From: Octopus sinensis | Taxonomy: Eukaryota | Assembly: GCF_006345805.1 (NCBI RefSeq) | Contig: NC_043001.1 | Span: 104,408,001 to 104,472,000, forward strand | Direction of reading: 5' to 3' | DNA: 64,000 nucleotides | Shown: piece after piece, positions 1,460-61,301 of the stretch | Layout: every line of letters begins with the position of its first letter | Numbering within the stretch: position 1 is the first letter of the stretch | The notes under the pieces: generated by a model | The model's input: the letters and a program-made list of their open reading frames with translations, nothing else | The model's database searches: none | Told to the model about the DNA's origin: nothing | Program-made: the position numbers and the translations under genes

Positions 1460-1524
1460 TTAGCTTCTCTTTTGAGAATACCGTTTGGAAGGTTACGTAT
1501 CTCCTCTGCAAAGTCTCTATATTC
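1460..1524 (-). CDS. Long exon B9 (65 nt): [21 protein letters not shown]
   Basis: cttttctag acceptor, gtaaat donor. Confidence 0.83.
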
Positions 1525-59800: not shown

Positions 59801-61301
59801 TATTAAAAGTTGCATAACCAGGACTACATCACAGTCTTCTCATGATTCAAAGTCAAAATCAAAATTAAGCAGAATGTAATATAATCACTTACTTGGCTTC
59901 GACAAGTCCAAAACCTTCACTGACTACCCTTCTAAAATCTTCATATTCCTAGAAAAGGTAACAAAAAAAGCATTTGTAGTAACTAAAAACAATGATTTGA
60001 CATTAATAATTCTATTTTGGACTGGTTTCGACTCTTCAATGAAACAAAACATTACCTTATTCACAGAAACACTTTAAAAAAAGCAAATCCTTTTGTCTAT
60101 AAATGTTAACCTCCAGTAAAGAGCTGAAATCATTGACTGATGGGGGATATTACCTAAATTGAGAAGTGATACACTAAAGGGATGTGACATAATACTACAA
60201 GGCATTTCATCTTGCACTGTCAACTGATTTTGATATTCCTTTCTTAAAAAAAGATTCTATGCTGTTACTAAAAGATAGCAGCAAATATCTCCCTTAAATC
60301 TTGCAAAAAACTAAAAGATGTGGCTGTGTGGTAAGTCTATTAGTTATTTATTATATGTTGTCTTCTGAGACATGAAAAGATGAAAAAGCTATGTTGACCT
60401 AAGCATGATTTTGAACTCATAAATTCAAGAAAGGTGTTATGCTGTTGTGTGATTGCTTCATCGACTATCATCTTTAAAATGTACATAAGTTTTGCAAAAG
60501 GGGTGGGTTAGTTTCCTTTTTCATTTGGTAGAGCTGTTTGTTGTTTGACCTCAACATCTGAAGGAATAAACAAATGGATGGAGAGGAAACTGTTGATTTG
60601 GTCCAAATGCATGAAGGTGAGAGAATTCATGCTAAAGGCACCCAAGAAGCAGATGGGGGTGTTAAACTGGGTGGCATGTAAAGCCTGTAGCCAGTTTCCT
60701 GATAAAGCAAAGAGGAGTTTGATGAAAACCAAACAGCTATCCATCTTAAGTCCATCTTGTGTCCATATGAATGAAAATAATGAGCTGTAGATTGGAAAGG
60801 AAATCACCATCATCATAGTTTTACCATCCACATTTTATAGCTTTCATAGATCTAGCAGAATTCATTCACATAGATATTTTTTCATTGTAAGGATTTAACA
60901 TGTTTGTTTGGTCTTTAGACTCCCATGGAAAGACAATTGGAGCTAAACAAAAATAAGTGTAATAGTAAAAACAACAGCCAAAAAAATAACAATCAATGCT
61001 GCTGCTGAAGCTACTGGTGGTGCGAGTGCCACTGCTGCTGCTACACCCCACCCCACCAATTTTTTTAAAAAAAAGAGGACCCTAGTAATTCACCTTCAAA
61101 AACAAAACAATGATAAATCTTAACATGACTGTTAAGGGCTCTGGCTTGAGATAAAACAGATGAGAGATACCAAGCCTGTGGTTAAGGTGCTTGTCTGTTT
61201 CAACTCACAGAGCTACACAAACTCAATATGCTGCCTTGTACAAAATAAATAAATATTAAGAACTTACATTGCTATCTCCACAATATTTTTCTGCTAGATT
61301 T
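1460..61301 (-). CDS. Partial multi-exon gene (18 micro-exons, start/stop not seen) encoding a tandem ~30-33 aa helical-repeat protein of unknown family
   Basis: Exons in transcription order: 61268-61301, 59893-59948, 58187-58220, 54680-54738, 43624-43657, 41935-41999, 40839-40872, 37933-37991, 32304-32337, 30658-30722, 28291-28324, 24414-24475, 21944-21977, 20970-21034, 20206-20239, 15456-15517, 4035-4068, 1460-1524. All have YAG acceptors and GT(A/T/G)(A)(G/A)T donors. Intron phases alternate 0/2. The 864 nt join without a stop: [287 protein letters not shown]. Confidence 0.88.
2085..2470 (-). mobile_element. Old RTE-clade LINE 3' fragment
   Basis: Minus-strand translation gives [11 protein letters not shown]..., WYRHVLHLP and [15 protein letters not shown], typical of the RTE ORF C-terminus. 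Confidence 0.7.
4035..4068 (-). CDS. Short exon S9 (34 nt): (D)[11 protein letters not shown]
   Basis: ttttgcag acceptor, AAG|gttagt donor. Confidence 0.85.
4716..5354 (-). mobile_element. Inverted 3' end of a CR1-group LINE (reverse complement of ~6815-7447)
   Basis: ORF 4889-5191 nearly identical to the C-terminus of 5439-7283; (TCAAAA)n-type tail at 4716-4740. Confidence 0.9.
5389..7447 (+). mobile_element. 5'-truncated CR1-group (CR1/L2/Crack-like) non-LTR retrotransposon; RT ORF 5439-7283
   Basis: Motifs [68 protein letters not shown]; short tandem 3' tail. Confidence 0.93.
7449..8169. repeat. Compound (TA)n/(TACA)n microsatellite blocks
   Basis: Directly visible at 7449-7697 and 7757-8169. 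Confidence 0.95.
8170..8895 (-). mobile_element. RTE-related 3'-end (SINE-like) element with a (GAT)n tail and an internal ~67-bp minisatellite
   Basis: catcatcatcgtttaacgtccg...ctggatgcccttcctaatgccaaccact matches the 3' UTR of the RTE at 9657. The unit gtgctttttatgtgccaccggcacagaagccagtc recurs at ~8398, 8465, 8532, 8599, 8673, 8740. Confidence 0.8.
8998..9350. mobile_element. Foldback/MITE-like element with ~140-bp terminal inverted repeats
   Basis: aataaaaggaattcca...gtactttca (9001-9137) is the near-perfect reverse complement of tgaaagtattag...ggaattccttttatt (9205-9346); flanked by (TA)n. Confidence 0.8.
9370..9656. repeat. (TA)n-rich microsatellite
   Basis: Directly visible. Confidence 0.95.
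9657..13570 (-). mobile_element. Young RTE-clade LINE; intact APE-endonuclease + RT + PHD-like finger frame (10473-13562, 1029 aa excluding the microsatellite-derived N-terminus)
   Basis: Motifs [84 protein letters not shown]; (GAT)n tail at 9657-9672; both ends abut TA microsatellites. Confidence 0.95.
9941..10400. repeat. ~158-bp tandem repeat (3 copies) in the RTE 3' UTR
   Basis: gagtcggatagtgct..tacgtaccacca...ggatcctggctggttcaattcg recurs at ~9941, 10099, 10258. Confidence 0.85.
14290..15065 (+). mobile_element. Cluster of old RTE 3'-end/SINE-like fragments
   Basis: [20 protein letters not shown] remnant at ~14540-14600 and two (GAT)n tails (~14500, ~15050). Confidence 0.7.
15456..15517 (-). 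CDS. Long exon B8 (62 nt): [20 protein letters not shown]
   Basis: atatttgcag acceptor, gtaagt donor. Confidence 0.83.
15570..18588 (+). mobile_element. Near-full ORF2 CR1-group LINE (endonuclease + RT), inactivated by stops at ~17289, ~18024, ~18300
   Basis: Motifs [42 protein letters not shown]; (AATC)n tail; the empty site is seen in the paralogous intron at ~24520-24540. Confidence 0.93.
20206..20239 (-). CDS. Short exon S8 (34 nt): (R)[11 protein letters not shown]
   Basis: gttttgcag acceptor, gttagt donor. Confidence 0.85.
20970..21034 (-). CDS. Long exon B7 (65 nt): [21 protein letters not shown]
   Basis: ccttttttag acceptor, CAG|gtaagt donor. Confidence 0.85.
21944..21977 (-). CDS. 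Short exon S7 (34 nt): (K)[11 protein letters not shown]
   Basis: gtttacag acceptor, CAG|gttagt donor. Confidence 0.85.
23965..24325 (+). mobile_element. tRNA-head SINE of octopus type; related copies at ~31090-31400 (+), ~52485-52800 (+), ~32680-32960 (-), ~45480-45850 (-), ~19260-19400
   Basis: tgtgtggtaa...ggttcattcc box A/B-like head, conserved gcaccttgggcaagtgtcttctactatagcc core, internal (TG)n, ataagtactaggc 3' part. Confidence 0.75.
24414..24475 (-). CDS. Long exon B6 (62 nt): [20 protein letters not shown]
   Basis: atatttatag acceptor, gtaaat donor. Confidence 0.83.
25490..25980 (-). mobile_element. Old RTE LINE 3' fragment
   Basis: Diverged homolog of 9657-10930 ([13 protein letters not shown]) with a (GAT)n tail. 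Confidence 0.75.
28291..28324 (-). CDS. Short exon S6 (34 nt): (M)[11 protein letters not shown]
   Basis: ttttgcag acceptor, GAG|gttagt donor. Confidence 0.85.
29236..30501 (-). mobile_element. Full-length (1266 bp) but inactivated mariner transposon
   Basis: TIRs ttgggttggcaactcagttactgcc / ggcaggaacttagttgccaacccaa with TA on both sides; motifs [40 protein letters not shown]; frameshifted. Confidence 0.93.
30658..30722 (-). CDS. Long exon B5 (65 nt): [21 protein letters not shown]
   Basis: cttttctag acceptor, gtaagt donor. Confidence 0.85.
32304..32337 (-). CDS. Short exon S5 (34 nt): (I)[11 protein letters not shown]
   Basis: ttttgcag acceptor, gtgagt donor. Confidence 0.85.
33300..33960 (+). 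mobile_element. Old RTE endonuclease-region fragment; paralog at ~45860-46610
   Basis: [33 protein letters not shown] matches the RTE EN segment [19 protein letters not shown]...QIDYILARK. Confidence 0.8.
34100..36900 (-). mobile_element. Penelope-like retroelement remnant (RT thumb + GIY-YIG endonuclease)
   Basis: SIYQCKI...[18 protein letters not shown]...STGLSKLVW...CGVCNSE...CMH at 34808-35287; [19 protein letters not shown] at ~36200-36270; Asn-rich linker; outer boundaries approximate. Confidence 0.85.
34138..34230 (-). ncRNA. Type I hammerhead ribozyme motif of the Penelope-like element
   Basis: Minus strand: ucuuuc CUGAUGA gaag[...]cuuc GAAA c auau g UC gagaa. Core intact, stem II GAAG/CUUC, minimal palindromic stem III, GUC cleavage triplet at 34150-34148. 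Confidence 0.75.
37010..37400 (+). mobile_element. RTE-related 3'-end/SINE-like element
   Basis: ggttggcgttaggaagggcatccagctgtagaaac...catgctagcatggaaagcggac..(GAT)n. Confidence 0.75.
37933..37991 (-). CDS. Long exon B4 (59 nt): [19 protein letters not shown]
   Basis: atatttgcag acceptor, gtaaat donor. Confidence 0.8.
38685..39925 (+). mobile_element. Degenerate Ty3/gypsy LTR-retrotransposon integrase fragment
   Basis: [21 protein letters not shown] (HHCC region), PWSRV...YYLIIV...[23 protein letters not shown] across frameshifts. Confidence 0.8.
40839..40872 (-). CDS. Short exon S4 (34 nt): (R)[11 protein letters not shown]
   Basis: ttttgcag acceptor, GAG|gttagt donor. Confidence 0.85.
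41935..41999 (-). CDS. Long exon B3 (65 nt): [21 protein letters not shown]
   Basis: ccttttttag acceptor, CAG|gtaagt donor. Confidence 0.85.
43624..43657 (-). CDS. Short exon S3 (34 nt): (E)[11 protein letters not shown]
   Basis: ttttgcag acceptor, gttagt donor. Confidence 0.85.
47795..50394 (+). mobile_element. 5'-truncated RTE LINE, near-identical to 9657-13570; premature TAA at 48614-48616
   Basis: ORFs 47708-48616 and 48791-49687 match the 1066-aa ORF; (GAT)n tail; flanked by TA microsatellites. Confidence 0.95.
50505..52362 (-). mobile_element. Older RTE LINE copy, tail-to-tail with the previous one, interrupted by a ~195-bp insertion (51829-52024)
   Basis: [39 protein letters not shown]; several stops. 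Confidence 0.88.
52936..54600 (+). mobile_element. Probable non-autonomous Helitron-like element
   Basis: A|TCTATTATAT 5' end; subterminal hairpin-like cacgggcaacgccggg followed by a degenerate CTRR (ccaa) then T; internal duplicated block (~53090-53270 / 53350-53500). Confidence 0.55.
54680..54738 (-). CDS. Long exon B2 (59 nt): [19 protein letters not shown]
   Basis: atatttatag acceptor, gtaaat donor. Confidence 0.8.
56775..56925. repeat. (ACT)n/(GCT)n/(ACC)n trinucleotide microsatellite
   Basis: Directly visible. Confidence 0.9.
57245..58075 (-). mobile_element. Second Penelope-like element 3' fragment (GIY-YIG) with a degenerate hammerhead motif at ~57280-57320
   Basis: YSITCNCG..., [36 protein letters not shown]; CUGAUGAagacug...cagccGAAA. 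Confidence 0.8.
58187..58220 (-). CDS. Short exon S2 (34 nt): (K)[11 protein letters not shown]
   Basis: ttttgcag acceptor, gttagt donor. Confidence 0.85.
59893..59948 (-). CDS. Long exon B1 (56 nt): [18 protein letters not shown]
   Basis: ccttttctag acceptor, gtaagt donor; phase 0 in, phase 2 out; 9 nt shorter than paralogs, frame kept. Confidence 0.85.
61268..61301 (-). CDS. Short exon S1 (34 nt): [12 protein letters not shown]
   Basis: ttttacag acceptor, gtaagt donor; phase 2 in, phase 0 out. Confidence 0.85.

What the first reader, a model, noticed from the sequence alone, without database searches (positions are those of the whole stretch)
1460..61301. Splice-phase architecture permits combinatorial exon shuffling or alternative splicing of repeat halves
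Every short exon ends in phase 0 and every long exon starts in phase 0. Every long exon ends with 2 nt (AA, GA, AG or AT) and every short exon starts with A, G or T, so no B-to-S junction can create a stop. Any S can therefore splice in frame to any downstream B, and any B to any downstream S. Together with hypervariable exons and near-identical introns that favour unequal crossover, this could generate many chimeric repeat isoforms or alleles, loosely analogous to arthropod Dscam. The compatibility is seen directly; its use is inference and is also an automatic by-product of tandem duplication.
Basis: partly seen in the sequence, partly recalled or inferred. Interest (0 to 1): 0.75.

Follow-up and report, generated by a model that had tools for sequence, protein, structure and literature searches.

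The report
Octopus repeat gene with homogenised introns
The 18 small exons belong to a 35-repeat octopus gene, likely a transformed copy of the neighbouring p47 gene; its transcripts join the tested exons in plain order rather than mixing them Dscam-style, but its introns likely keep overwriting each other by gene conversion while the exons stay different, and repeat number differs between annotated species.

Summary
Observation confirmed; the Dscam-like reading is not supported. The window holds units 21-29 of a 35-unit, ~230-kb minus-strand array of short (S, phase 2→0) and long (B, phase 0→2) exons in octopus gene LOC115212235. Frame compatibility is a by-product of duplication. RNA contigs from 4 of 4 runs join S21-B21-S22 in order; no skipping joint between these exons was listed (contigs miss rare forms). 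The genomic half of the idea holds. Units alternate in two types, and a model (pLDDT 75) suggests ~64-residue four-helix bundles, one per pair. The O. vulgaris protein has 37 units with a copied pair and chimeric exons; an O. bimaculoides fragment lacks four. Only 5 of 557 high-identity tracts between units contain a whole exon (457 of 977 looser tracts do), and the exon differences are older than the intron likeness. This points to patchwork intron conversion that spares exons. The gene has UBA-like domains, a faint SEP-like end and intron positions matching the head-to-head p47/NSFL1C neighbour, so it is likely a derived p47 copy. No paper found naming it. An unchecked scan note reports a similar exon/intron pattern in another genome.

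The parts
61268..61301 (-). S21, short exon, 34 nt, phase 2 to 0 (odd type)
   Evidence: joined to B21 in contigs of 4 of 4 runs
59893..59948 (-). B21, long exon, 56 nt, phase 0 to 2
   Evidence: both flanking joints seen, CT..AC on + strand
58187..58220 (-). S22, 34 nt (even type)
   Evidence: joint 58220|59893 in 4 of 4 runs
54680..54738 (-). B22, 59 nt
   Evidence: present in P0001 and P0007
43624..43657 (-). S23, 34 nt
41935..41999 (-). B23, 65 nt
40839..40872 (-). S24, 34 nt
37933..37991 (-). B24, 59 nt
32304..32337 (-). S25, 34 nt
30658..30722 (-). B25, 65 nt
28291..28324 (-). S26, 34 nt; nearly identical to S10, 105 kb away
   Evidence: tract 27309-28606, 98.2% over 1300 nt
24414..24475 (-). 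B26, 62 nt
21944..21977 (-). S27, 34 nt
20970..21034 (-). B27, 65 nt (89% identical to B15)
20206..20239 (-). S28, 34 nt
15456..15517 (-). B28, 62 nt
4035..4068 (-). S29, 34 nt
1460..1524 (-). B29, 65 nt
59949..61005 (.). Intron tract 98.3% identical over 1057 nt to the S19-B19 intron; it starts exactly at the B21 acceptor, while B21's best match among all B exons is only 66%
27309..28606 (.). Likely conversion tract shared with unit 10 (98.2%, 1300 nt); one of the 5 of 557 tracts that include a whole exon
38233..39889 (.). Intron tract about 96% identical to the S16-B16 intron (two pieces, 821 and 839 nt)

Best explanation
This is the middle of one large octopus gene, likely a derived duplicate of the adjacent p47/NSFL1C gene, whose 35 two-exon repeats are likely spliced mainly in plain order (shown at two junctions) into a predicted string of four-helix bundles, while likely gene conversion between same-type introns homogenises them and occasionally changes repeat number. 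Shown: exon anatomy, uniform phases, in-order joints at S21-B21-S22, intron patches far more alike than exons, different unit numbers in annotated orthologues, UBA-like domains, and the p47 neighbour. Inferred: an ancestral S-B-S-B pair was amplified by unequal crossover; conversion then acts between units of the same parity; tracts that overwrite an exon are mostly removed by selection because each unit's sequence matters in its place. Function (inferred, about 45%): an intracellular ubiquitin-binding scaffold, with four UBA-like domains on a long helical arm, that has lost the UBX domain p47 uses to dock on p97.
For: Splicing: joints 58220|59893 and 59947|61267, CT..AC on the + strand, in one contig per run in 4 of 4 runs; contigs of 810, 1264, 810 and 810 nt, which by exon lengths span about 9-13 units unbroken (inferred from lengths). 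Strict SB alternation, 0 inverted copies. Pair as module: nearest neighbours have the same parity in 30-34 of 35 units for each of 6 segments; Argonauta orthologue fragments keep the alternation; structural matches to the model cover ~60-65-residue blocks 53-116, 116-180 and 181-246 (model pLDDT 75, pTM 0.41). Copy number: P0007 (O. vulgaris) has 37 units, with a near-exact copy of B5-S6-B6 and a chimeric S between S15 and B15; P0006 (O. bimaculoides) runs 18, 19, 20/24 chimera, 25. Conversion: exon identity 0.58-0.65 against 0.70-0.83 in the adjoining intron windows, random 0.45; 5 of 557 tracts of at least 93% identity hold a whole exon, against 457 of 977 looser tracts; the nearest neighbour stays the same between adjacent segments in only 2-7 of 35 units. 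Units 1-9 are collinear in O. bimaculoides (75% aa identity to orthologues, paralogues 34-36%), yet introns among them are 94-98% alike over 347-952 nt; synonymous divergence between paralogous exons is high, pS 0.29-0.44. p47 origin: Pfam UBA_4 33.8 bits and UBA_8 29.3 bits, both above cut-off; a + strand neighbour 27 kb away has UBA_4 and SEP hits and matches PDB p47 at E 4e-8; shared phase-0 intron after the UBA tryptophan turn, shared phase-0 intron five residues before the SEP 'KNG' motif, and shared phase-2 intron before 'E-x-P'.
Against: Only 2 of 69 array junctions were seen directly, and contigs drop rare forms. In three runs the contig begins at the same spot (last 18 nt of B17), which no shared 30-mer of the assembly explains; an alternative path or allele there is possible. 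The RefSeq model itself skips units 15-16, probably because B16 is 58 nt in this assembly. The other species' unit counts come from annotations; their DNA was not seen. SEP likeness is weak: no Pfam hit, pairwise E 0.03, profile E 0.0035 with probability 9%. The repeat region differs more between O. sinensis and O. vulgaris (27 of 1060) than the N-terminal and C-terminal domains (3 of 589; Fisher p 0.002), which fits ongoing exon change; against O. bimaculoides the repeats (75%) are no faster than the C-terminal domain (76%). No neutral divergence between species was measured. Function is untested.
Confidence: 0.68

Rival explanations
1. Regulated combinatorial splicing, loosely like Dscam: cells skip varied blocks of units to make many isoforms.
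For: All in-order S-to-B and B-to-S joins are in frame and stop-free: 1597 possible paths through 9 units, 95 if parity is kept. Unexplained shared contig start at B17/S18 in three runs. The RefSeq path B14 to S17 is such a skip.
Against: In-order joints only, among the exons laid, in 4 of 4 runs, within long contigs. No cluster of interchangeable same-slot exons; strict alternation. Compatibility follows from duplication. The O. vulgaris model includes every unit.
Confidence: 0.07
2. No conversion: the units duplicated recently, and exons then diverged fast under positive selection while introns kept their original likeness.
For: Paralogue dN/dS of 0.67-1.62 by exon class; excess changes in repeats between the two closest species.
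Against: Synonymous sites in exons are also far more diverged (pS 0.29-0.44) than the best intron tracts (2-6%); the same distinct exons stand in the same order in O. bimaculoides; nearest neighbours form a mosaic.
Confidence: 0.12
3. The repeats are overlapping UBA units forming a SOUBA-like solenoid that binds many ubiquitins.
For: Two helices per ~32 residues, which is the SOUBA arrangement of a shared third/first helix (PMC3314968, passages). The S|B phase-0 intron falls 13 residues after a conserved alanine, as in the p47 UBA (read by eye). The p47 UBA scores above 299 of 300 shuffles on the repeat profile.
Against: Repeat profile against the gene's own UBAs: probability 0.6%, 6 of 60 shuffles as good; against other UBA_4 domains 0.9%. 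The p47 score is only 4.2 bits and was one of 13 peptides tested. Structural matches fall in ~64-residue blocks, as separate bundles would.
Confidence: 0.2
4. A diversifying sensor: alleles with different unit number and order segregate within species under balancing selection, as in fungal NLR or brown-algal repeat genes.
For: Chimeric exons and dimer-step changes between close species; a cluster of 10 residue changes in units 27-28; the unexplained contig start.
Against: Single locus by DNA search (all 18 matches in this array); no inverted or spare exons, unlike Ectocarpus ROCO genes (PMC3341825, passages); no population data.
Confidence: 0.2

Closest known systems
Argiope MaSp2.1a/2.2a and Nephila Flag spidroin genes (PMC9779670 and PMC3563967, passages read)
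   Same: Intragenic tandem array with alternating types of homogenised introns; a multi-exon, multi-intron core unit is repeated. The MaSp2 authors knew of no other eukaryotic gene with alternating homogenised intron types.
   Different: Here four intron types cycle, homogenisation is patchy (92-98% tracts), and the coding units are not homogenised (34-36% aa identity). The product is a predicted globular helical repeat, not a low-complexity fibre.
Ectocarpus ROCO-LRR and NB-ARC-TPR exon shuffling (PMC3341825, passages read)
   Same: Repeat-encoding small exons with compatible phases and variable repeat number.
   Different: There, one phase-0 exon per repeat, multigene families, and spare or inverted exons in introns. 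Here two exons per repeat, one locus, and no spare or inverted copies.
Arthropod Dscam1 (PMC7430681 and PMC8042237, search listing only)
   Same: Tandemly duplicated, frame-compatible small exons.
   Different: Dscam1 picks one exon per cluster by mutually exclusive splicing; here neighbouring exons are joined in series and the protein has no Ig-type Pfam hit.
p47/NSFL1C (UBA-SEP-UBX cofactor of p97; architecture recalled, neighbour identified)
   Same: UBA_4 domains, a SEP-like segment, matching intron positions and phases, head-to-head neighbour.
   Different: Four UBA-like domains, an inserted 35-37-unit array, only faint SEP likeness, no UBX hit, and an alanine-rich tail.
NBPF/Olduvai exon doublets (PMC9313022, search listing only); LPA kringle IV-2 (recalled)
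   Same: Repeat encoded by an exon pair, higher-order units, copy-number change by unequal crossover.
   Different: No Pfam hit to these domains; here paralogous exons are strongly divergent while introns are alike.
UBAP1 SOUBA domain (PMC3314968, passages read)
   Same: Two helices per repeat next to UBA-like sequence.
   Different: Three units there, 35-37 here; sequence support is not significant and the model suggests separate bundles.

Membership tests
Dscam-type mutually exclusive exon cluster | Tandem cluster of alternative exons for one slot, only one included per transcript | tested here: not met
   S and B alternate strictly; S21, B21 and S22 are in one contig in 4 of 4 runs; the O. 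vulgaris protein model holds all units in series
Dscam-type mutually exclusive exon cluster | Docking-site/selector RNA pairing | not tested
   Not searched, because the cluster architecture it serves is absent
Dscam-type mutually exclusive exon cluster | Many isoforms in full-length transcripts | not testable with these tools
   Only assembled contigs were available; they drop rare variants
Ectocarpus-type repeat-exon shuffling | One symmetric phase-0 exon per repeat | tested here: not met
   Two asymmetric exons per repeat, phases 2 to 0 and 0 to 2
Ectocarpus-type repeat-exon shuffling | Spare or inverted repeat exons in introns | tested here: not met
   0 plus-strand copies at E<0.1 and no orphan copies in 384 kb
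Ectocarpus-type repeat-exon shuffling | Repeat number varies between homologues | tested here: met
   35 and 37 units, and a fragment lacking four; from annotations
Arrays with alternating homogenised introns (MaSp2 type) | Every other intron of a type is similar in sequence | tested here: met
   Same-parity nearest neighbour in 32-34 of 35 units for the four intron segments; tracts of 93-98%
Arrays with alternating homogenised introns (MaSp2 type) | Coding repeats homogenised too | tested here: not met
   Paralogous units 34-36% aa identical
p47/NSFL1C (UBXN2) family | N-terminal UBA_4 domain | tested here: met
   Pfam UBA_4 33.8 bits, cut-off 21.8; shared phase-0 intron
p47/NSFL1C (UBXN2) family | SEP domain | tested here: inconclusive
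   No Pfam hit; weak pairwise and profile scores; two intron positions coincide
p47/NSFL1C (UBXN2) family | C-terminal UBX domain | tested here: not met
   No UBX hit in P0001, P0005 or P0007 or at this locus among 13 genome matches. Derived from p47, but not filed as a member
SOUBA solenoid | Third helix of one UBA is the first of the next, in a rigid solenoid | tested here: inconclusive
   Profile tests not significant; model pTM 0.41; best structural Z 6.2, generic four-helix bundles
SOUBA solenoid | Each unit binds ubiquitin | not tested
   No complex prediction or assay was run

The most novel reading that the evidence does not exclude
An octopod-specific descendant of p47 whose 35-37-unit arm is a live recombination cassette: homogenised same-type introns act as exchange handles that swap and duplicate divergent exon pairs, giving alleles with different bundle order within populations (a germline-diversified intracellular binding array), with a minor share of in-frame skipped transcripts on top.
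Probability: 0.2. Interest if true: 0.78.

Novelty: new variant of a known kind. Interest (0 to 1): 0.5.

Why it matters
The gene inverts the usual picture: introns 100 kb apart are up to 98% alike while the exons they flank are about 60% alike and keep their position across species. With 70 exons and four cycling intron types it is a clean test case for how selection keeps exons out of conversion tracts. A 2022 spider-silk paper knew no other gene with alternating homogenised introns. It is also an unnamed helical repeat found only in octopods in these searches (6 hits among 1.84 billion representatives; the named ones are Octopus and Argonauta), likely born inside a copy of the conserved p97 cofactor p47. 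It is not, on present evidence, a new Dscam-like isoform generator.

Tried and rejected
Pfam scan of single B exons: 0 families in 27 of 34 scanned. PDB sequence searches with P0001 and P0005: nothing significant. ESM Atlas: no usable hit for the repeats; only scores under 0.9 for the C-terminal part. Single-sequence fold of P0002: pLDDT 36.7, discarded. Foldseek with the alignment-based model: 0 matches at E<=0.001. VIA-align: no UBA or SOUBA entry among the 50 rows shown, which is inconclusive. Run search: no RNA holder listed on record; the runs used are 'RNA?' guesses, though spliced joints show RNA origin for those contigs. First read-laying (L007) was swamped by repeats, so no exon joint could be read from it. 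The 'goes back' joint 61301 to 58186 lies in the same contigs with unknown letters between; I read it as the look-alike S20 (82% to S22) placed on S22, not as back-splicing, but the table alone cannot exclude that. The script had wrong starts for units 10-11 and was redone. Gap-free identities were inflated and were replaced by gap-inclusive values. Stop-free junctions as a design feature: rejected. PMC10084454 passages gave nothing on exclusive splicing. No complex prediction was run. No supplementary files were read; gene lists there could mention this locus.
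Full report
1. Observation. A self-comparison of the window showed nine copies of two exon types on the minus strand. Exact limits are in the parts list. S exons are 34 nt and run from phase 2 to phase 0; B exons are 56-65 nt and run from phase 0 to phase 2. A DNA search of the own genome gave 18 matches, all on C5 between 104.377 and 104.580 Mb. Profiles over 384 kb of fetched DNA found 35 S and 35 B exons in strict alternation, with no inverted or orphan copy. 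The window holds units 21-29. No B x S pair gives a stop (0 of 1225). That is not surprising: only TA or TG tails can, and TA would stop the ordinary path before 33 of 35 heads. Dropping one exon alone shifts the frame.

2. The gene. A 40-residue upstream exon found P0001, O. sinensis LOC115212235, 1935 aa. It contains 33 of the 35 units and skips 15-16. B16 is 58 nt and S10 is 35 nt in this assembly. S10's extra base is absent from an X5 contig, and all four contigs end where an S10 without it would force a break, so it is likely an assembly error or a private allele. B16 is unresolved; O. vulgaris has an intact B16. At least 12 coding exons lie upstream of the array and 6 downstream; the gene spans about 310 kb. 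Orthologues: O. vulgaris P0007, O. bimaculoides P0002/P0004, P0005 and P0006, and four Argonauta fragments. The search of 1.84 billion representatives gave 6 hits: 1 Octopus, 4 Argonauta, 1 unnamed.

3. Splicing. On window 58170-61900, 4 of 4 runs (4 studies; 4 of the 24 listed, 3 chosen for exon cover) each gave one contig with joints 58220|59893 and 59947|61267, ends CT..AC on the + strand. Of 17 joints, 15 were shown. One was a 'goes back' joint in the same contigs, read as a look-alike exon; the others lay in repeats. No skipping joint between these exons appeared. Contig lengths (810, 1264, 810, 810 nt) correspond to about 9-13 units in series (inferred from lengths). Limits: contigs drop rare forms, and only 2 of 69 junctions were seen directly. 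Three runs begin at the same place, 18 nt before the end of B17, which no repeated 30-mer explains; a common variant, another allele or another splice path are all open. X13's start fits either the full path (S13 base 2-3) or the RefSeq skip path (S11 base 6).

4. The module is a pair of units. Odd and even units differ, and for six segments the nearest neighbour has the same parity in 30-34 of 35 units. Argonauta keeps the alternation. An AlphaFold model of units 21-29 on a 6-row alignment has pLDDT 75 and pTM 0.41, with two helices per unit. Structural matches cover blocks of 60-65 residues (53-116, 116-180, 181-246), generic four-helix bundles, best Z 6.2, rmsd 3.2, 63 aligned; Foldseek found nothing. 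The block borders fall inside even B exons, so exons are not structural modules. Keeping parity cuts the in-frame paths through nine units from 1597 to 95.

5. Genomic change. P0007 has 37 units: a near-exact copy of B5-S6-B6 and an S that is half S9, half S13 stand between S15 and B15, and the first half of B15 looks like B17. P0006 goes from a 20/24 chimera to unit 25. Both steps are even. These rest on annotations. In the assembly, exons are less alike than the adjoining intron windows (0.58-0.65 against 0.70-0.83; random 0.45). Of 557 same-strand, mostly non-repeat tracts of at least 100 nt and 93% identity, 5 hold a whole exon; of 977 looser tracts, 457 do. That contrast partly restates exon divergence, so timing matters. 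Units 1-9 stand in the same order in O. bimaculoides (75% aa identity; paralogues 34-36%), yet introns among them share 94-98% over 347-952 nt, and exon synonymous sites differ by 29-44%. The nearest neighbour changes from segment to segment (same in 2-7 of 35). The simplest reading is repeated conversion between same-type introns, with exon-spanning events mostly lost; S10/S26 is one that survived. 'Hypervariable' exons are therefore mostly old differences. dN/dS among paralogues is 0.67-1.62, and repeats changed more than flanking domains between the two closest species (p 0.002) but not against O. bimaculoides.

6. Origin and function. Pfam finds UBA_4 and UBA_8 above cut-off in the N-terminal part; an alignment shows four such domains. 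A + strand gene starting 27 kb from the first mapped exon has UBA_4 and SEP hits and matches p47 structures. Its UBA exon ends in phase 0 three residues after the tryptophan, as do the four UBA exons here (one has tyrosine there). Its SEP exon starts in phase 0 five residues before 'KNG' and ends in phase 2 before 'E-x-P', exactly as an exon near this gene's end. Sequence likeness of that segment is weak. I put a p47 origin at about 75%. No UBX was found. Whether the repeats derive from the UBA is open. The most likely role, inferred only, is a ubiquitin-binding scaffold uncoupled from UBX docking on p97; UBA and UBX roles are recalled.

7. Literature. Five accession or locus terms: 0 papers. 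Searches on p47 with cephalopods, octopus exon arrays and octopus Dscam listed nothing on this gene by title or abstract start. Passages read: PMC3341825, PMC3563967, PMC3314968, PMC9779670, PMC10084454. Listings only: PMC7430681, PMC8042237, PMC9313022. The library lacks most subscription papers, and no supplements were read.

8. Verdict. The feature is real; the splicing-combinatorics reading has little support (0.07); the recombination reading is supported between species. New variant of a known kind, interest 0.5.

Noticed in passing
G000:C5 104,671,455-104,703,400 (+), L020, L034, L036, L040-L042: p47/NSFL1C gene head-to-head with this gene; likely its parent.
   Followed up: yes
L007:8874-8908 (S10) and the L002/L003 border (B16): Two exons with frame-breaking lengths (35 and 58 nt) in the assembly. 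S10's extra base is missing in RNA contigs; B16 probably explains why RefSeq skips units 15-16.
   Followed up: partly
L002:6871-6888 (end of B17): Contigs of three runs from three studies start at the same base here; no repeated 30-mer explains it.
   Followed up: partly
window 10473-13769 (-), 47675-49687 (+), 5331-7283 (+), 15564-18026 (+): Long ORFs that look like LINE endonuclease/reverse transcriptase (label by eye); two families, copies 93-95% alike. One sits 47 nt upstream of the B28 acceptor.
   Followed up: no
window 29310-30190 (-) and 34808-36300 (-): Broken ORFs resembling a mariner transposase and a Penelope-like element (labels recalled).
   Followed up: no
L025:750-870 (-): The exon right after the array looks like a fifth, degenerate UBA with the same phase 2 to 0 pattern; not significant by Pfam.
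   Followed up: partly
L024-L025, units 33-35; L012-L011, units 1-4: The odd/even alternation loosens at the array ends: B34 is 65 nt like odd B exons, and S2-S4 are 31, 37 and 28 nt.
   Followed up: no
L032:8743-8900 and L032:7288-7432 (-): Exons of the next gene downstream, SCYL2-like (label recalled).
   Followed up: no
G000:C21:18162815, C9308:70701, C8896:39165: Three further SEP-domain loci in this genome.
   Followed up: no
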